A stretch of 22,606 nt of DNA from the UHGV virus genome UHGV-1468108, one strand, 5' to 3'. A program made the translations under genes and the position numbers. Under the pieces are notes generated by a model that did no database searches, was not told where the DNA came from, and worked only from the letters and a program-made list of their open reading frames with translations. Of the stretch, positions 13,140-19,113 are shown one piece after another. The DNA comes from a virus. Within the stretch, counting starts at the first letter, position 1; the number at the start of each line of letters is the position of its first letter.

Positions 13140-14555
13140 ATGGCTACGTGGCAACAGGGTATTAATTCTGGTGGTTTTCTGGCTGGCATCGGTACGCAAA
13201 ATGAGAATGCGCCAAAGGCAAGCGACATTAACGCAACGCTTGGTCTGATCCGCGAAAACAATGAACTGGCTCGCTCAGGTGCAAATAACGTTGGTCTGAC
13301 CGCGTTACGTGGTCTGGCTGGAGTTGCTGATATTTACAATCAGGAACAGCAACAGAAAGCGATTAGTGCGTTCAATAAGGTTCACGCTGATGCATGGGCT
13401 TCTGGTGATCCATCGGGACTATTTAAGTTTGCCCAGGAAAATCCAGCGTTTGTTGCACAGGCACAACAGGCGTTTTCCGGTCTTAATGATCAGCAACGCA
13501 ACGATATGGGCGATTTAGCCATGAGGGCTAACGTCGCTCTTTCTCAGGGACCGGAAGCCTACAGTAAATTCATTACTGACAACAAGGACAGGTTAAATCG
13601 CGTGGGGGCGAATGCTGACTGGATGATTCAGACAGGTATCCAGAATCCAGAGCAGCTATCACACATGTTGACTACTATGTCTCTCGGTGCGCTTGGACCA
13701 GAAAAGGCGTTTGCTGTTCAGGACAAGATGGCTGGTCGTGAAATTGACCGAGGCAAACTTGCAGAGACAATCCGCAGCAATCAGGCTGGAGAAGCACTTC
13801 AGGCGAGAGGGCAAAACCTTTCCTATCAGTCAGCAATGACTGGACACAATATCGCAGCACAACGCTTGGCTCTGGATCAGCAAGAGTTCGGGTTTAAGAT
13901 GCAGCAAGCACAGGAAAAGGCTCAGCAGTTGATTAGCGAAGCACCTAAGCTGTCAGTAAACATGGAAAAAGGCATCGAGACGGCTGTAAACAATGCTACA
14001 GCATCATCAAACTCAGCCAATTCCATGAGTGCGCTTGCTCAACAGTTCAGAGCAGAAAAACCAACGACAGGTTTGTTCGGTAACGCACAGAACATGTTCG
14101 CAAAACTTACCGGAAGCGATACAACATTGCGTGATTTGCGCATCCGCCAAAATGCCCTTGTTAACAGTCAGGTTCTTAAATTCCTACCTCCCGGCCCCGC
14201 AACGGATAAAGACGTTGAGATCGTTCGGCAGGGTGCACCAACTGACATGGATAACCCTGAGACGGTCGCAAGATGGCTTGATGCGATGGCAAACCTTGAG
14301 CGACGAAACGCGCAGTTTAATGAGTTTAAAGCCGAGTGGATGAGCGCGAATGGCAATCCAGGACAATCGCGTAATGGCGGTCAGATATTGGGGTTGGATG
14401 TTAAAAAAGGTGAATCATTGGGGAGTGCCGTTAAGCGGTATATGTCAATGAATACTGACGCAGCGCCAGCACAAGATTCAACACCTTCAGGAGAACCACG
14501 GAATCAGGTTGGATCATATACCTCAAAATCAGGCATTCAATTTACGGTGGAATGA
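13140..14555 (+). CDS. gp20: Ejection (E) protein, P22 gp20-like
   Basis: 471 aa (same length as P22 gp20 as recalled); AAGGAG ribosome-binding site; syntenic position. Confidence 0.72.
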
Positions 14556-16393
14556 TGAAAGTAACTGCAAACGGTAAGACATTTACCTTTCCTGATGGTA
14601 CGAGCACCGAAGATATTGGCACCGCCATTGATGAGTATTTTGCTGGTCAGGCTGTTCAGCAACAAACAGTTAATCAGGCCAATAATGCACCAACACGGGA
14701 AGAACCATCATTGATGCAACAAGCTGGTGATTGGCTCACAGGTGGTCAAAGTGCAGGGCAAATTGCAGAACAGGCTGGTCGTGGTCTGGTAAACATACCA
14801 TTTGACGTATTGCAGGGTGGCGCAAGTCTGATTAATGCAATCAGCCAGGGGCTTGGCGGCCCCAAGGTTTTGAATGATGTTTATCGCCCTGTCGAGCGAC
14901 CGACAGACCCTTATGCGCAAGCTGGAGAAACAATTGGCGGGTATTTAGTTCCAGGAGTTGGAACGGCAGGAAGCATGGCTATTGGATCACTGGCAGAGGC
15001 CGCAAATCAGAAAGGCGATTTCGCACAAAATGCAGCTAAAAATGCCGGAGTTAACCTTGCCGCTCAGGGTGTTCTTTCCGCAGCAGCAAAGGGAATAGGG
15101 CGTGGAATAACGGCTATAAAAGGTGATATTGCGCCAGAAGTGGCGAAGAAAATTGCCACATCAGAATCGATGGGCGTGACACCAATGACATCTGATGTTA
15201 TCCCGCCGAAAAATGCTTTCACTCGCGGACTTACTCAGGATGCTGAGGGGGCTTTGCTCGGGACAGGCTCAAAGCGAGCTGAGCAATATGCAACGCGTAG
15301 TAAGCTGGTAAGCAATTATTTTGACCGTTTTGGTGAGTACAACCCTGATGATGTGGTGAAATCTCTTACCACCACGTTAAGGGGGCGGAAGGATGCCGCT
15401 GGCGCTGTTATCAATGACGTCACCAATAAAATGGGTAATGCCGCAGTTGATACCACAAATACCATGAATGCTCTGAATACAGCGATCGCAAGACAGGAAC
15501 GGCTTGGGACGTCTGCCAATCAAAGCCTGCTTACATCCTTGCGTAACCTACGTGAAGAATTAGCAAACCCTGCAACTGATTTGGATGTTACGTTTGATCT
15601 CTTGCGTCAGCACAGAACAGCATTTAGATCTAATGTTCAGGGAGATGCTATGGTCTTCCCCAACCAGGCAAAAGCAGCTACCAATATGGTAGAGAATGCA
15701 ATGTCAAAAGACCTTCGTAACGCAGTTGCTAAAAACCTCGGTGCATCAGACGCAGCAAAATACCTTAAAGCAAATTCCGATTATGCAAACGTTTATAATA
15801 AGGTGCTTAATAAAAACATTGCCAACAAGCTCAACAAGGCAAGCAGTGAAGCCAGTCCTGAACTTATAAATACCGTTGTATTAAGCAGAAAACCATCTGA
15901 CGTGAAACGAATCTGGAGCGCACTGGATGATAAGGGGAAAGATGCTATGCGTGCAGCTTACGTCAGCAAAATAGCGGAAAAGGCCGGGGACTCTCCAGCC
16001 AAGTTCATCACTGAAGTTAATAAGCTGAAATCTCAGTCAGGCGGTGAAATTTACAACACTATTTTTTCTGGAAAGCACATGAAAGAGCTTGATGCTCTTC
16101 ATGAAGTTCTACAGCAAACAGCAAGGTCAGACACCGCAAATGTAGTAACTCAGACGGGGCAATCGCAAGCCAACAGGATAAGGACGATTGGCGCAACTGC
16201 GACCCTTGGCGTATCAATGGGGCTTGAGGCTGGTTTTGGTGCAATGATGCGCTTGTATGAGTCCAAAGCAGCAAGGAATATGCTTCTTCGTTTGGCAAAC
16301 ACCAAAGCAGGAACACCAGCCTATGAAAGAGCGATAAATAACGCTGCGAATGCCATCAGACCGCTGTTTGCTACTGAGGCAACACAGCAGTAA
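14552..16393 (+). CDS. gp16: Ejection (E) protein, P22 gp16-like
   Basis: 613 aa (P22 gp16 is about 609 aa); start overlaps the gp20 stop; syntenic position. Confidence 0.72.
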
Positions 16394-16417
16394 CGTATGG
16401 GAAATTGGATTCAATCG

Positions 16418-16807
16418 CTAACATTTTCTTTTTACTTTTCCAACAAAAGCTTTGGTTGAATCCATATTTCCATAACCGGAAATGGTTTTTGACATTAAAA
16501 CTGTTCCAGTAGGATGTATTACCCATGAGTCGATAACGCGTTGAGTTTCGCCATTCGCGCCGATTCCTATGATGGAGTTTTTAGACAATGCTTTGTAAGC
16601 CATGCCGCCCGCATCTGTCCCAGAATATGTGATGCTGGCATCTTCACCGCTTGTCTTAATGATGAATGTTCCACTAAAACCATCTTCTTCCGGATGGAAA
16701 TTATTTCGTTCTGAATAGCTTATTCCGCGCATATCTCCAACGACCCAGCACTCTGCTGTAGCCCCAAAAGATATGAATAAGAACATAGCAGCAAGAAATT
16801 GCTTCAC
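16418..16807 (-). CDS. Small secreted hypothetical protein (signal peptide) at the sie locus
   Basis: GTG start with AAGAGG 5 nt upstream gives MKQFLAAMFLFISFGATAECW..., a signal-peptide-like N-terminus, then a ~105-aa Gly/Ser/Thr-rich mature part. AT-rich. The longer listed ORF (to 16879) has no ribosome-binding site. Confidence 0.5.
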   Translation of the reverse strand: MKQFLAAMFLFISFGATAECWVVGDMRGISYSERNNFHPEEDGFSGTFIIKTSGEDASITYSGTDAGGMAYKALSKNSIIGIGANGETQRVIDSWVIHPTGTVLMSKTISGYGNMDSTKAFVGKVKRKC

Positions 16808-17024
16808 ACCAACCTCTTTAGTTTTTCTAGTTACTTTATCACGATAGGATATGCAAATTGATAAAACTAAATTGCGCACATGATAACTCAGTAATAATTG
16901 TTAATGAAAACATGATCACCTATATTGCACAAGGCGAAACAGGAAGCATAATCTGGTTTCATGAGTGTGATCACGTTTGGGTAAATCAAAGTCAAGAGGA
17001 AATACTTGAAATTATCAAAAATAA

Positions 17025-17606
17025 CTATCTAAACGTTGCACACGACTCATCTATCCATTTTTCATAAAATTGTATACCGAGATAGGCAAGAACAGATGGA
17101 TGTATATCAACAAGCTTTTCGCCAAGATGTTCTGTTGGAGGTGGATAATCTTTGCCTTGGTTTCTTACGGTTATAGGCATAGTTGTTGCTGGATGAAACT
17201 CAACTATCATAGGGTCGCCTTCGTATTTTGCTATTTCCCCTGTTGAATCAATGATTAACTCTTTAATATAATGGCTTCTTGCTCCCGGAAATGCCCCAAG
17301 AGTAGTATAAGGAGGTTCAAGCTTTGAGATTTCCATAGTGGAATGATGATCAGCATTTCTTGCTTGGTGAAGGTAAGCAAGTGTTTTGTCTGTTTTTCTA
17401 AGCATGAACTTTTGGTTGAAGTGGCTGCTAAATTTTCCACTAACCGGCTTTGTTGCACAGAGCAACTTACTGAAAGACTTTTCTATATGCCCAAGACATT
17501 CTCGCCAGTGCATTTCAAAATCATCATGGTTTGTAGATGATTTCATCTGCTCTAGGCACTTTTTAGCTGCGATGATTTCTTTTTTTGCTGGGTTGTAATC
17601 GATCAT
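17025..17606 (-). CDS. Hypothetical 193-aa protein translationally coupled to mnt; possible HEPN-like accessory protein
   Basis: ATG overlaps the mnt stop (ATGA on the minus strand) with AAGGA upstream; AT-rich; predicted helical N-terminal half containing LHQARNADHH, an R-x4-H-like motif. Confidence 0.55.
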   Translation of the reverse strand: MIDYNPAKKEIIAAKKCLEQMKSSTNHDDFEMHWRECLGHIEKSFSKLLCATKPVSGKFSSHFNQKFMLRKTDKTLAYLHQARNADHHSTMEISKLEPPYTTLGAFPGARSHYIKELIIDSTGEIAKYEGDPMIVEFHPATTMPITVRNQGKDYPPPTEHLGEKLVDIHPSVLAYLGIQFYEKWIDESCATFR

Positions 17607-17857
17607 TTTGCATCCTTGCCATACATGTTTTTAAGTGTCTCAAATACCACAGACTTGAACTGTTCAGCCTGCATCTCGGCTAATCGTTCAGCTTCATTGC
17701 GATAACCTTTTACAGGAGATGGTCTCGATAGAGCATCTTGGACGATTTGCAACAATTCTGAGTTCATTGATCTACCATTTGACTCTGCTCTGTATTTTAA
17801 TTTTTCTCTTACTTCCAAAGGCATGCGGAAGTTAAAGTGCGGATCATCTCTAGCCAT
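17603..17857 (-). CDS. mnt: Mnt repressor (ribbon-helix-helix)
   Basis: MARDDPHFNFRMPLEVREKLKYRAESNGRSMNSELLQIVQDALSRPSPV is near-identical to P22 Mnt as recalled; GGAG ribosome-binding site; divergent from arc. Confidence 0.9.
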   Translation of the reverse strand: MARDDPHFNFRMPLEVREKLKYRAESNGRSMNSELLQIVQDALSRPSPVKGYRNEAERLAEMQAEQFKSVVFETLKNMYGKDAK

Positions 17858-17879
17858 GCCATCACTCCAAGTTAGTGTA

Positions 17880-17932
17880 TTGACATGATAGAAGCACTCT
17901 ACTATATTCTCAATAGGTCCACCGTGGACCTA
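17880..17932. promoter_or_regulatory. Overlapping divergent Pant / Pmnt promoters with Arc and Mnt operators
   Basis: Pant -35 TTGACA (17880-17885), 17-nt spacer, -10 TATATT (17903-17908). On the minus strand, Pmnt -35 TTGAGA (17913-17908) and -10 TATCAT (17890-17885). Arc operator ATGATAGAAGCACTCTACTAT at 17886-17906. Perfect 17-bp palindrome AGGTCCACCGTGGACCT (Mnt operator) at 17915-17931. Confidence 0.8.
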
Positions 17933-18109: not shown

Positions 18110-18190
18110 AGTTGAAGCCCCAACTGCGGGAACAGTCAGGGCTTCGGTTGTCAGTAAATCCGTGGAGAAAAACCAACATGAATAGTATAG
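18110..18190 (-). ncRNA. sar: Possible sar-like antisense RNA across the arc-ant intergenic region and ant start (approximate bounds)
   Basis: In P22 a small antisense RNA is transcribed leftward across the ant ribosome-binding site. This 68-bp intergenic region contains the inverted repeat GAAGCCC...GGGCTTC (18114-18145). Positional inference only. Confidence 0.3.
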
Positions 18191-19113
18191 CAATTTTAGA
18201 AGCAGTGAACACCTCTTACGTACCATTCAACGGTCAGCAAATTATCACCGCCATGGCTGCCGGAGTTGCATATGTTGCGATGAAGCCAATCGTTGAAAAC
18301 CTCGGAATGAGCTGGGGTACTCAGCAACAAAAACTTATGAAACAACTAGATAAGTTCAAATGTATTCATATGAATATGGTTGCTGCTGATGGAAAGCTTC
18401 GTAAGCTACTCTGCCTTCCTTTGAAGAAGTTAAATGGATGGCTGTTCAGCATCAACCCTGAGAAAGTTCGTGCTGACATCTGCGATAAACTGATTCAGTA
18501 CCAGGAGGAATGCTTTAGCGTGCTGCATGACTACTGGACTAAAGGCCATGTAGTTAACCCACGCAAAGCTAAAAAGGCGTTGCCGGGTAAAATTACCACT
18601 GAACAGCAGGAAGCCATTAAACAACTCGTCATGAGTCGCGGTCAGTCTCTGCCAAAAGAAAAACAGGCGAAGGCGATGATCACCATGTGGTCGTCACTGA
18701 AATCCCATTTTGGATGTTCGTACAAAGAAATCAGTGAGGAGCAGTTTACCGAAGCACTATCACTTGCAGCTCGAGTTCCACTTGAAGGTGAGTTCATTGG
18801 CAAACAAGAGAAGAAAACAAACGAGCTTTCTGCAAAAGAAGCAAACAGCCTTGTATGGTTATGGGATTATGCCAACCGCTCACAGGCATTATTCCGCGAA
18901 CTGTATCCGGCGCTAAAACAAATTCAATCGAACTATTCCGGCAGATGCTACGACTACGGTCATGAATTCTCGTATGTTATCGGAATGGCGAGAGACGTTT
19001 TAATAAACCACACACGAGATGTTGATATTAATGAGCCAGGCGGACCGACGAATCTTTCCGCATGGATGAGACTTAAGAATAAAGAATTACCTCCTTCAGT
19101 ACATAACTACTGA
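18178..19113 (+). CDS. ant: Antirepressor Ant
   Basis: ATG at 18178 with GGAG upstream; N-terminus [21 protein letters not shown] is antirepressor-like; directly downstream of arc. The listed ORF start at 18112 is not used. Confidence 0.8.

What the first reader, a model, noticed from the sequence alone, without database searches (positions are those of the whole stretch)
16418..17857. Unrecognised two-gene cargo at the sieA position, co-transcribed with mnt
In P22 the interval between gene 16 and mnt holds the superinfection-exclusion gene sieA. Here it holds two AT-rich minus-strand genes instead. One is a 193-aa protein whose start overlaps the mnt stop (ATGA coupling), so it should be expressed from Pmnt in the lysogen. 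It contains LHQARNADHH, an R-x4-H arrangement reminiscent of HEPN RNase active sites found in abortive-infection and toxin proteins. The other is a ~129-aa protein with a signal peptide. Their position, expression context and foreign composition make them candidates for a new exclusion or abortive-infection module; the HEPN reading rests on a short motif only.
Basis: inference. Interest (0 to 1): 0.75.

Follow-up and report, generated by a model that had tools for sequence, protein, structure and literature searches.

The report
Two independent prophage cargo genes beside mnt
Next to the mnt repressor of a P22-like E. coli prophage sit two separately swappable accessory genes: a secreted relative of phage 434's Hex exclusion protein, and a member of a large unstudied protein family whose one invariant motif looks like a HEPN RNase active site.

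Summary
ORFs of 193 aa (17025-17606, minus) and 129 aa (16418-16807, minus, GTG start) exist. The 193-aa ORF overlaps the mnt stop by ATGA. Both lie in DNA of 35-41% GC, against about 44-52% in the virion genes to the left.

- **Not one module.** These are two independently assorting cassettes. orf129 fills the sieA slot; orf193 fills the slot that holds orf59a in P22.
- **orf129 is not unrecognised.** It is a homologue of phage 434 Hex ("heterologous exclusion", which excludes P22) and of Sf6 gp38: same PHROG family, BLASTP E 4e-12. It is predicted to be a secreted eight-stranded beta-barrel.
- **orf193 belongs to a large unnamed family.** At least 1,772 clusters at 50% identity match it, with no Pfam, NCBIfam, PADLOC or PDB hit. 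W34, R83, H88 and P157 are the only invariant residues. The R-[N/D/H]-x3-H motif sits at the end of helix 3 of a predicted four-helix bundle, where HEPN domains carry it.

Best reading: a Hex-like periplasmic exclusion protein plus a solitary latent HEPN-like RNase co-expressed with Mnt. Confidence is moderate.

The parts
17603..17857 (-). mnt, an Arc/Mnt ribbon-helix-helix repressor. Its last ~13 codons belong to the mosaic segment that carries orf193.
   Evidence: Pfam Arc 2.8e-27 and Repressor_Mnt 3.4e-11. 87.6% nt identity to P22 mnt. Similarity to P22 weakens over the 3' part of mnt and is lost near its end. In other E. coli prophages the orf193 segment ends at 17643.
17885..17913 (-). 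Pmnt-like promoter (TTGAGA-17-TATCAT), overlapping the divergent Pant (17880-17908, +)
   Evidence: Promoter scan. The region differs from P22 Pmnt/Pant/Oarc/Omnt at 2 positions in ~135 bp.
17025..17606 (-). orf193, a member of a large uncharacterised family; candidate HEPN-like RNase with a beta-sheet insert
   Evidence: ORF. ATGA overlap with mnt. phrog_23516, unknown function, 3.6e-119. 1,772 representative clusters at E<=1e-3. AF2 model pLDDT 82.8: helices 5-23, 27-55, 62-72, 74-87; strands 90-148; helix 170-191.
17343..17360 (-). Codons for R83-N-A-D-H-H88, the family-invariant R-[N/D/H]-x3-H motif at the end of predicted helix 3
   Evidence: Sequence. R83 and H88 are present in 151/151 sequences; position 84 is N 79, D 39, H 18. 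The helix ends at residue 87. HEPN definition from PMC3710099.
16808..17024 (-). 217-bp spacer that travels with orf193. No terminator-like hairpin found. Ends in the RBS of the sieA-slot gene.
   Evidence: Nearly identical (2 mismatches) in prophages where a SieA-type gene follows instead of orf129. RNA fold z-score -0.63. No minus-strand terminator hit in the spacer.
16813..16818 (-). Shine-Dalgarno AAGAGG serving the GTG at 16807-16805. The cassette swap junction lies immediately after the GTG.
   Evidence: The homology with phage Emek starts just upstream of this RBS.
16418..16807 (-). orf129, a Hex-family (phrog_2651) secreted small beta-barrel protein sitting in the sieA slot
16754..16807 (-). 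Predicted Sec signal peptide (residues 1-18, cleavage ATA|EC)
   Evidence: Hydrophobicity and the -3/-1 rule. Low-pLDDT N-terminal helix. The signal peptide is variable but the mature N-terminus ECW is invariant in homologues, including Hex.

Best explanation
The interval between gene 16 and mnt in this P22-like E. coli prophage is a two-slot accessory-gene hotspot, filled here by two unrelated, independently exchangeable genes.

Slot 1, the sieA slot. orf129 is a Hex-family protein. It is made with a cleavable signal peptide and exported to the periplasm, where it folds into a small eight-stranded beta-barrel, probably closed by a Cys20-Cys129 disulfide. I infer that it interferes with entry of superinfecting P22-like phages from the periplasmic side. 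That would make it a functional substitute for the inner-membrane protein SieA that it replaces.

Slot 2, the mnt-distal slot. orf193 is transcribed from Pmnt and translationally coupled to mnt, so it should be made in the lysogen. It is a solitary enzyme whose core is a four-helix bundle carrying an invariant R-[N/D/H]-x3-H at the end of helix 3. I infer that it is a divergent HEPN-type, metal-independent RNase that stays latent until infection triggers it. The 60-residue beta-sheet insert between helices 3 and 4 is the likely sensor or oligomerisation element. Once triggered it would cleave RNA and abort the infection.

Shown here: gene structure, coupling to mnt, homology to Hex, family size and invariant residues, independent assortment, and the absence of a conserved partner gene.

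Inferred: export, the disulfide, RNase activity, latency and triggering, and both phage-resistance phenotypes.
For: orf129:
- Same PHROG as 434 Hex, with an end-to-end BLASTP match of E 4e-12.
- Both proteins share a signal peptide, the ECW mature N-terminus, a central (E/D)-(S/T)-W-x-I motif, STK(A/S)FVG and a C-terminal Cys.
- Hex was named for excluding P22 from Salmonella(lambda imm434) lysogens (PMC3564112).
- In related prophages a SieA-type gene (phrog_7745, 6e-108) starts at the very same RBS and GTG.
- Hex homologues occupy lysogen-expressed positions in 434, Sf6, HK446, HK633 and Sf101, downstream of cI. In Salmonella phages Emek and ST-35 they occupy the sieA slot.

orf193:
- ATGA overlap with mnt and a P22-like Pmnt.
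- 1,772 clusters in the family.
- The only invariant residues are W34, R83, H88 and P157. Near-invariant are R70, D73, Y78, A82 and H160.
- The motif position and the polar residue after R match the published HEPN definition.
- E31-x3-R35 lies in helix 2, with E/D at position 31 in 111/151 sequences.
- The gene is solitary with hypervariable neighbours: 561 neighbours fall into 516 clusters.
- The closest relatives sit as opposite-strand or terminal inserts in prophages.
Against: Against a HEPN assignment for orf193:
- No sequence profile links orf193 or 143 relatives to any HEPN family or to any Pfam, NCBIfam, PADLOC or PDB entry.
- Foldseek against the PDB gives nothing significant. The best E is 0.42, and a HEPN chain appears only at rank 15 with probability 0.18.
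- Local model confidence around the motif is the lowest in the protein (pLDDT about 65).
- The large insert lies between helices 3 and 4, not between 2 and 3 as is usual for HEPN.

Against a defence role for orf193:
- In environmental genomes many neighbours are housekeeping genes. Only about 8-10 of 150 immediate neighbours hit defence models.
- tblastn found no orf193 homologue in 50,697 phage records.

Against the periplasmic exclusion reading of orf129:
- The only biochemical paper on Hex proposes a cytoplasmic role, blocking RecA-stimulated repressor cleavage.
- Identity to Hex is only 27%, so specificity may differ.
Confidence: 0.45

Rival explanations
1. orf193 is not a HEPN RNase or a defence gene. 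It would be a four-helix-bundle enzyme or binding protein of some other, possibly housekeeping-type, function that has been picked up as a prophage moron. The R/H pair would serve different chemistry.
Confidence: 0.3
2. mnt-orf193 works as a toxin-antitoxin-like pair. The ribbon-helix-helix protein would neutralise or tightly autoregulate a toxic orf193, stabilising the prophage (addiction) rather than, or as well as, defending against phages.
For: The 4-nt ATGA overlap follows the classic antitoxin-then-toxin order. The mosaic segment carrying orf193 includes the 3' end of mnt. The 62%-identical relative P0002 is likewise preceded, with a 4-nt overlap, by an 83-aa Arc/Mnt-like RHH protein in a context that is not immI. 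In another prophage a ClpP-like gene is coupled to mnt in the same way.
Against: Across about 105 family loci there is no conserved upstream partner. P22 Mnt is a well-characterised Pant repressor with no toxin partner (established knowledge). The same mnt occurs with other cargo or none. The HepS precedent shows that solo HEPN proteins need no antitoxin.
Confidence: 0.12
3. orf129 acts as published for 434 Hex. It would stabilise lysogeny from inside the cell by blocking RecA-stimulated autocleavage of the prophage repressor, and would not act on incoming phage.
For: Shkilnyj et al. 2013 report that hex deletion raises spontaneous induction 30-fold in a recA+ host only. A 6-kDa Hex fragment inhibits RecA-stimulated cleavage of the 434 and P22 repressors in vitro.
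Against: Hex and orf129 both carry a conserved N-terminal signal peptide followed by an invariant ECW. Both are predicted as compact beta-barrels with terminal cysteines. The paper never considers export; it contains no occurrence of 'signal' or 'periplasm'. It used a refolded internal fragment, and full-length Hex was lethal when over-expressed. Here the gene replaces sieA, an entry-exclusion gene, at the same start codon.
Confidence: 0.15
4. The two genes form a single co-functional exclusion or abortive-infection module.
For: They are adjacent on the same strand, and no terminator was detected between them. They co-occur in 7 complete E. coli genomes.
Against: orf193 occurs in 14 genomes without orf129; the two inspected carry a SieA-type gene instead. 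orf129 occurs in about 140 genomes without orf193. The cassette boundary lies exactly at the orf129 start codon. Homologues of each gene occur elsewhere without the other.
Confidence: 0.05

Closest known systems
Phage 434 Hex ('heterologous exclusion') / Shigella phage Sf6 gp38 (PHROG phrog_2651)
   Same: orf129 is homologous over its full length (27% identity, BLASTP E 4e-12; the same PHROG at 1e-60 and 1e-58). It shares the signal peptide, the ECW mature N-terminus, the central (E/D)-(S/T)-W-x-I and STK(A/S)FVG motifs, and the C-terminal Cys. It is likewise a small accessory gene at a lysogen-expressed position of a lambdoid or P22-like prophage.
   Different: Hex and gp38 lie downstream of cI in the PRM operon. 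orf129 lies in the sieA slot between gene 16 and mnt, as in Salmonella phages Emek and ST-35. Identity is low, so target specificity is unknown. No exclusion phenotype has been measured for this branch.
P22 SieA (types A, B and C), an inner-membrane superinfection-exclusion protein
   Same: Same genomic slot. In sister prophages a SieA-type gene starts at the identical RBS and GTG. It is prophage-expressed and targets P22-like DNA delivery (PMC10883804).
   Different: There is no sequence similarity. SieA is a multi-pass membrane protein with the FxRYPxEAxxFNK motif, whereas orf129 is a soluble secreted beta-barrel with no transmembrane segment after the signal peptide.
HEPN superfamily RNases (Anantharaman et al. 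2013)
   Same: Predicted four-helix up-down core. Invariant R-x4-H with N, D or H after the R, at the end of helix 3. An acidic residue in helix 2. Members are often solitary, mobile, conflict-associated genes.
   Different: No significant sequence-profile or Foldseek match to any HEPN family. A ~60-residue beta-sheet insert lies between helices 3 and 4. There is an additional near-invariant P157-x2-H160 element before helix 4.
HepS of Salmonella prophage Gifsy-1 (solo HEPN abortive-infection anticodon nuclease, Nature 2026)
   Same: A single, roughly 200-aa prophage-encoded protein at an accessory-gene position, expected to be made in the lysogen, with no conserved inhibitory partner and a canonical R-x4-H. 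It is the best functional model for how orf193 could work.
   Different: No detectable sequence relationship. The orf193 family profile found nothing in the PDB sequence set or in the LT2 Gifsy-1 record, and tblastn found nothing in the phage collection. I could not retrieve the HepS sequence itself for a direct comparison. The trigger and the RNA target of orf193 are unknown.
P22 orf59a, the mnt-distal gene of the Pmnt operon
   Same: Same position, immediately downstream of mnt on the same strand.
   Different: Unrelated sequence (phrog_3202, 59 aa). It is separated from mnt by ~100 bp rather than overlapping it, and it is followed by an annotated terminator that has no counterpart here.

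Membership tests
Hex family (phrog_2651; phage 434 Hex, Sf6 gp38) | Significant full-length sequence similarity to 434 Hex | tested here: met
   BLASTP E 4e-12 over residues 1-129 vs 1-132. Both proteins hit phrog_2651, at 1.6e-60 and 1.4e-58. tblastn hits to 434, Sf6, HK446, HK633 and Sf101.
Hex family (phrog_2651; phage 434 Hex, Sf6 gp38) | Shared architecture: N-terminal signal peptide, mature N-terminus ECW, C-terminal Cys, ~110-residue beta domain | tested here: met
   Alignments. AF2 model of orf129. Hydrophobicity and cleavage-site check.
Hex family (phrog_2651; phage 434 Hex, Sf6 gp38) | Location downstream of cI in the PRM operon | tested here: not met
   Here the gene lies between gene 16 and mnt. 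Hex and gp38 lie after cI. This is a positional trait, not a defining molecular one.
Hex family (phrog_2651; phage 434 Hex, Sf6 gp38) | Excludes superinfecting P22-type phage when expressed from a prophage | not testable with these tools
   The phenotype is known only for 434 Hex, from genetics cited in PMC3564112.
HEPN superfamily | Conserved R-x4-6-H motif with a polar N, D or H after the R | tested here: met
   R83 and H88 are present in 151/151 family representatives. Position 84 is N 79, D 39, H 18, G 14. Definition from PMC3710099.
HEPN superfamily | Motif located at the end of helix 3 of a four-helix up-down bundle | tested here: inconclusive
   The AF2 model places R83 in helix 74-87 and H88 just after it, with helices 5-23, 27-55 and 170-191 completing the bundle. 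However, local pLDDT is about 65, the alignment behind the model held only 8 sequences, and I could not inspect the coordinates.
HEPN superfamily | Significant sequence-profile match to a known HEPN family | tested here: not met
   There were no HEPN matches at all. orf193 had no Pfam hit at E<=1, and its 143 relatives gave only scattered weak hits to unrelated families. NCBIfam, PADLOC and PDB sequences searched with a 144-sequence profile gave nothing relevant.
HEPN superfamily | Significant structural match to solved HEPN domains | tested here: inconclusive
HEPN superfamily | Acidic residue in helix 2 (E-x3-[KR]) | tested here: inconclusive
   E31-x3-R35 lies in helix 27-55. Position 31 is E or D in 111/151 sequences; position 35 is K or R in only 66/151.
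HEPN superfamily | Metal-independent RNase activity dependent on the R and H residues | not testable with these tools
   Needs biochemistry.
HepS-like solo HEPN abortive-infection proteins | Sequence or structural homology to HepS | tested here: inconclusive
   The family profile found nothing in PDB sequences or in the LT2 Gifsy-1 record. tblastn found nothing in phages. The HepS sequence itself was not available to me.
HepS-like solo HEPN abortive-infection proteins | Stand-alone gene with no conserved partner | tested here: met
   In 120 loci, 561 neighbours fall into 516 clusters, and no recurrent upstream or downstream gene appears.
Type II toxin-antitoxin pair (RHH antitoxin + toxin) | Conserved upstream antitoxin gene overlapping the toxin gene | tested here: not met
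   The arrangement is seen here (Mnt) and for the 62% relative in L134, but it is absent across the wider family.
SieA | Multi-pass inner-membrane protein with the FxRYPxEAxxFNK motif | tested here: not met
   Neither ORF has the motif or transmembrane helices beyond the orf129 signal peptide. The SieA-type gene of sister prophages does have the motif.

The most novel reading that the evidence does not exclude
orf193 would be the first recognisable member of a very large, wholly unannotated family (at least 1,772 clusters at 50% identity, spread across Proteobacteria, Bacteroidota, Acidobacteriota, Planctomycetota and others). The family would be a new branch of solo HEPN-type RNases with a beta-sheet sensor domain inserted between helices 3 and 4, acting as single-gene abortive-infection systems. 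Here it is wired to the prophage's Mnt repressor by translational coupling. Alongside it, Hex-family proteins would be periplasmic beta-barrels that block DNA delivery by P22-like phages. That would reinterpret the published cytoplasmic RecA-related mechanism of 434 Hex and would explain why hex and sieA are interchangeable at one start codon.
Probability: 0.3. Interest if true: 0.7.

Novelty: new variant of a known kind. Interest (0 to 1): 0.55.

Why it matters
If orf193 is an active solo HEPN-type nuclease, a family of at least about 1,800 sequence clusters now labelled only 'hypothetical protein' would become a candidate single-gene anti-phage system. It is missing from Pfam, NCBIfam and PADLOC v2.0.0 (2023), and it offers a tractable E. 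coli example whose expression context (Pmnt) is already well understood from P22.

The orf129 result ties a 1980 genetic phenotype, Hex exclusion of P22, to a predicted secreted beta-barrel that swaps with sieA at a single start codon. This gives a concrete, testable hypothesis for how Hex excludes P22, and it questions the cytoplasmic mechanism in the literature.

The locus also shows that the gene 16-mnt interval of P22-like prophages is a two-slot hotspot with clean cassette boundaries. That is useful for mining further exclusion genes.

Tried and rejected
- **Sequence libraries, negative for orf193.** No hit in Pfam, NCBIfam or PADLOC; none of 143 relatives hit a HEPN family in Pfam, where only scattered weak hits to unrelated families appeared. 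PDB sequence searches with the single protein and with a 144-sequence profile gave only noise.
- **Foldseek against the PDB.** Nothing significant. The afdb50 fold library was unavailable.
- **The search for related loci.** I replaced it with a hand-built degenerate pattern over D73-H88, which returned 120 loci, nearly all true family members.
- **Conserved partner gene.** All-vs-all clustering of neighbours, Pfam and PADLOC scans of the adjacent genes, and a targeted search for short upstream ORFs found none.
- **Plus-strand 69-aa ORF in the spacer (16858-17067).** No PHROG or Pfam hit, and no similarity to the small convergent ORFs beside orf193 relatives. I treat it as spurious.
- **Terminator between orf193 and orf129.** None found, so read-through from Pmnt cannot be excluded. 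I found only a weak extended -10-like sequence by eye upstream of orf129, which the promoter scan did not list.
- **Direct comparison with HepS.** The LT2 Gifsy-1 record has no ORF with R100-x4-H105 among the candidates I checked, so the comparison could not be made.
- **E. coli HS prophage HS1.** I checked it for the same spacer upstream of its tested sieA. Its immI region is organised differently, so the published 106-bp promoter fragment cannot be transferred.
- **Second R-x4-H at R35-H40.** Not conserved in the family.
Full report
**What is in the sequence**

The window is the late region plus the immI region of a P22-like prophage of E. coli. It is 100% identical over 16300-17900 to strain WL164.

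From left to right the region holds:
- gene 16, a DNA-transfer protein (14552-16393, +);
- a minus-strand ORF ending at 16418;
- a 217-bp spacer;
- orf193 (17025-17606, -);
- mnt (17603-17857, -);
- the divergent Pmnt/Pant promoters;
- arc, ant and the tailspike gene.

The mnt stop and the orf193 start share ATGA. The promoter-operator region differs from P22 at only 2 positions in about 135 bp. By the P22 paradigm, mnt and any gene coupled to it are expressed in the lysogen. This is an inference from established P22 biology, supported by the annotation.

GC content falls to 0.35-0.41 across the two ORFs, against about 0.44-0.52 in the virion genes to the left. The GTG at 16807 has a strong AAGAGG Shine-Dalgarno sequence and yields a normal signal peptide, MKQFLAAMFLFISFGATA|EC. 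PGAP's ATG at 16786 would remove the charged N-terminal region.

**Two slots, not one module**

P22 itself carries sieA, with its own promoter, and orf59a, followed by the mnt terminator, between gene 16 and mnt.

In 5,426 complete E. coli genomes:
- orf193 occurs in 21, always at 99% identity or more and always abutting an Arc-family (mnt) gene;
- orf129 occurs in 147;
- the two occur together in only 7.

The other 14 orf193 prophages lack orf129, and the two I inspected (MB53 and YA-1) carry a SieA-type gene there. That gene hits phrog_7745 at 6e-108 and contains the FGRYPGEAKGFNK motif (motif from PMC10883804).

Aligning the two arrangements shows near-identity (2 mismatches) through the spacer, the RBS and the GTG, then complete divergence from the next base onward. 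So orf129 and sieA are alternative cassettes at one start codon.

The orf193 segment (window 16805-17643) includes the last ~13 codons of mnt. The ATGA coupling is therefore part of that cassette.

Other prophages fill the mnt-distal slot differently. One has a ClpP-like gene that also abuts the mnt stop. Another has nothing on that strand and a P63C-domain gene on the other strand. Phage Emek has two small ORFs there.

No terminator-like hairpin separates orf193 from orf129. Read-through from Pmnt is possible but not shown.

**orf129 is a Hex homologue**

orf129 hits PHROG phrog_2651 at 1.6e-60. tblastn finds 27%-identical full-length matches next to the cI repressor genes of phages 434, Sf6 (gene 38), HK446, HK633 and Sf101.

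The 434 protein is Hex. It hits the same PHROG at 1.4e-58 and aligns end to end with orf129 at BLASTP E 4e-12. The two share:
- a signal peptide;
- an invariant ECW at the predicted mature N-terminus;
- a central (E/D)-(S/T)-W-x-I motif;
- STK(A/S)FVG;
- a C-terminal cysteine.

According to Shkilnyj et al. (PMC3564112), Hex stands for heterologous exclusion. Salmonella lysogenic for lambda imm434 excludes P22, and hex mutants do not (Susskind and Botstein 1980, as cited there).

A secreted barrel that swaps with sieA is most simply read as another entry-exclusion protein acting from the periplasm. SieA blocks the ejection-protein conduit of P22-like phages (PMC10883804).

This conflicts with the published proposal that Hex acts in the cytoplasm on RecA-stimulated repressor cleavage. 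That proposal rests on a refolded 6-kDa internal fragment, and the paper never considers export. I keep it as a rival.

**orf193 belongs to a large unnamed family**

A word-indexed search found only 7 relatives. An exhaustive profile search found 1,772 representative clusters at E<=1e-3, of which 1,297 are at 1e-10 or better. Nearly all are 185-205 aa.

In an alignment of 151 sequences (orf193 plus 150 representatives, the representatives each under 50% identical to one another):
- the only invariant residues are W34, R83, H88 and P157;
- R70, D73, L75, L76, Y78, A82 and H160 are conserved at 90% or more;
- the consensus around the motif is RKxDPLLxYLx[QHN]AR[NDH]A[DE]xH;

No relevant match appeared in Pfam, NCBIfam, PADLOC or the PDB sequence set: orf193 itself has no hit, and the scattered weak Pfam hits among its 143 relatives go to unrelated families, none of them HEPN. 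All 252 hits of a second profile search are labelled 'hypothetical' and carry no Pfam domain. They include proteins from Acinetobacter lwoffii, Teredinibacter turnerae, Pseudomonas fluorescens and Hydrogenophaga. tblastn finds no homologue in 50,697 phage records.

**Is orf193 a HEPN protein?**

The published definition (Anantharaman et al. 2013, PMC3710099) has four elements:
- a four-helix up-down bundle;
- a polar N, D or H after the R;
- often an acidic residue in helix 2.

The AF2 model (pLDDT 82.8, pTM 0.65) has helices 5-23, 27-55, 62-72 and 74-87, then six strands (90-148), then helix 170-191. R83 lies in the last turn of helix 74-87 and H88 lies just after it. Position 84 is N, D or H in 136/151 sequences. 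E31-x3-R35 sits in helix 2. All of this fits the definition.

Three points count against the assignment:
- The motif region has the lowest local confidence in the model.
- The big insert lies between helices 3 and 4 rather than between 2 and 3.

An R-x4-H also arises by chance in 29% of shuffles of this protein. The case therefore rests on family-wide invariance plus position, not on the motif alone. I rate 'HEPN-type RNase' at roughly even odds.

**Genomic context of the family**

A degenerate DNA pattern over D73-H88 pulled 120 loci from species-representative genomes, nearly all true family members. They come mostly from Alpha-, Beta- and Gammaproteobacteria, Bacteroidota and Acidobacteriota.

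The neighbourhoods are hypervariable. The 561 neighbours fall into 516 clusters, and no partner recurs. The commonest adjacent Pfam families are IS1595 transposase (5 loci), resolvase, IS110, AAA_15/21, Fic, NYN and RtcB (two loci, both in MAGs labelled Pyrinomonadaceae). About 8-10 of 150 adjacent genes hit defence models: SoFic, AriA/Old, type I RM, PD-T4-6 and PD-Lambda-5. This is a solitary, mobile gene with at most a weak link to defence islands.

The closest relatives are informative:
- P0004 (47% identity) sits at a prophage end next to a tailspike gene.
- P0003 (49%) is an opposite-strand insert among siphophage tail genes.
- P0002 (62%) is preceded, with the same 4-nt overlap, by an 83-aa Arc/Mnt-like RHH protein (23% identical to Mnt) in a context that is not immI.

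The last case keeps a toxin-antitoxin-like reading alive for the enterobacterial branch, although the wider family lacks any such partner.

**Closest functional precedent**

HepS of prophage Gifsy-1 is a solo, constitutively expressed HEPN protein with no inhibitor. It is inactive at rest, is activated by a phage tail-tip protein, and then cleaves tRNA anticodon loops (PMC13043305). orf193 could work in the same way, but I found no sequence link between them. I also could not obtain the HepS sequence for a direct test.

**Verdict**

The secreted protein is a new positional variant of a known exclusion family, Hex. orf193 is a member of a large uncharacterised family that is best read, with moderate confidence, as a divergent solo HEPN-type nuclease. 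The two are independent cassettes in a two-slot hotspot, not a module. Interest is moderate (0.55). The value lies in the size and total lack of annotation of the orf193 family, in a tractable and well-understood expression context, and in a concrete reinterpretation of Hex.

Noticed in passing
L006:2501-2905 (phage 434 hex) compared with window 16418-16807: 434 Hex has a typical cleavable signal peptide (MIRIAALLSILLTTSANS|ECW) and, by homology with orf129, a beta-barrel fold with terminal cysteines. The only mechanistic paper (PMC3564112) proposes a cytoplasmic anti-RecA role and never mentions export. It also reports that full-length Hex is lethal when over-expressed, and it studied a 6-kDa refolded fragment.
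   Followed up: partly
window 16786-16807; L001:4119-4487: RefSeq/PGAP annotates orf129 as 122 aa from the ATG at 16786. The upstream GTG at 16807 has a strong AAGAGG RBS, restores the charged start of the signal peptide, and matches the MK... starts of homologues. PGAP also starts the SieA-type gene of MB53 24 codons upstream of this shared GTG, whereas the PHROG SieA profile matches 1-164 from the GTG.
   Followed up: yes
L136:2602-3392 (E. coli SMN013SH2): In this P22-like prophage a 178-aa gene annotated as a ClpP-like protease subunit abuts the mnt stop codon, sharing one base. It is another mnt-coupled cargo in the same slot as orf193. orf129 is present there too.
   Followed up: no
L134:1328-2157 (Logan SRR22936687 contig): The 62%-identical orf193 relative is preceded, with a 4-nt overlap, by an 83-aa Arc/Mnt-like RHH protein (Pfam Arc E 0.014; 23% identical to Mnt over the full length). 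Its neighbours are a DUF4113 fragment and a 210-aa membrane protein, so this is not an immI context. It could be a portable RHH-orf193 pair.
   Followed up: partly
window 16858-17067 (+): A 69-aa plus-strand ORF spans most of the spacer and overlaps the orf193 3' end. It has no PHROG or Pfam hit and no similarity to the small convergent ORFs found beside orf193 relatives. It is probably spurious.
   Followed up: yes
window 18112-19113 (+) compared with L001:5804-7014: In the window the ant reading frame is one 333-aa ORF, listed from a TTG start. In strain WL164 the equivalent stretch is annotated as an 89-aa hypothetical protein plus a 292-aa P22AR C-terminal-domain protein. The two sequences must differ to the right of 17900, or ant is split in WL164.
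   Followed up: no
L001:333-2256 (E. coli WL164, left of gene 16): In WL164 the tail-needle and gene-20-like ejection-protein genes are annotated as partial pseudogenes in an inverted arrangement. This suggests that its otherwise identical prophage is rearranged and defective. The window itself shows an uninterrupted run of late-gene ORFs.
   Followed up: no
window 17489-17506 (orf193 R35-H40): A second R-x4-H (RECLGH) lies in helix 2 right after the invariant W34. R35 could be the basic residue of an E31-x3-[KR] element, but H40 is not conserved in the family.
   Followed up: yes
L008 and L072 (MAGs labelled Pyrinomonadaceae): An RtcB RNA ligase gene lies immediately upstream of the orf193 homologue on the same strand, 7-78 bp away. 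RtcB reseals the 2',3'-cyclic phosphate ends that HEPN RNases produce. The pairing appears in only 2 of 120 loci; the two RtcB genes are 82% identical, so this may be one event.
   Followed up: no
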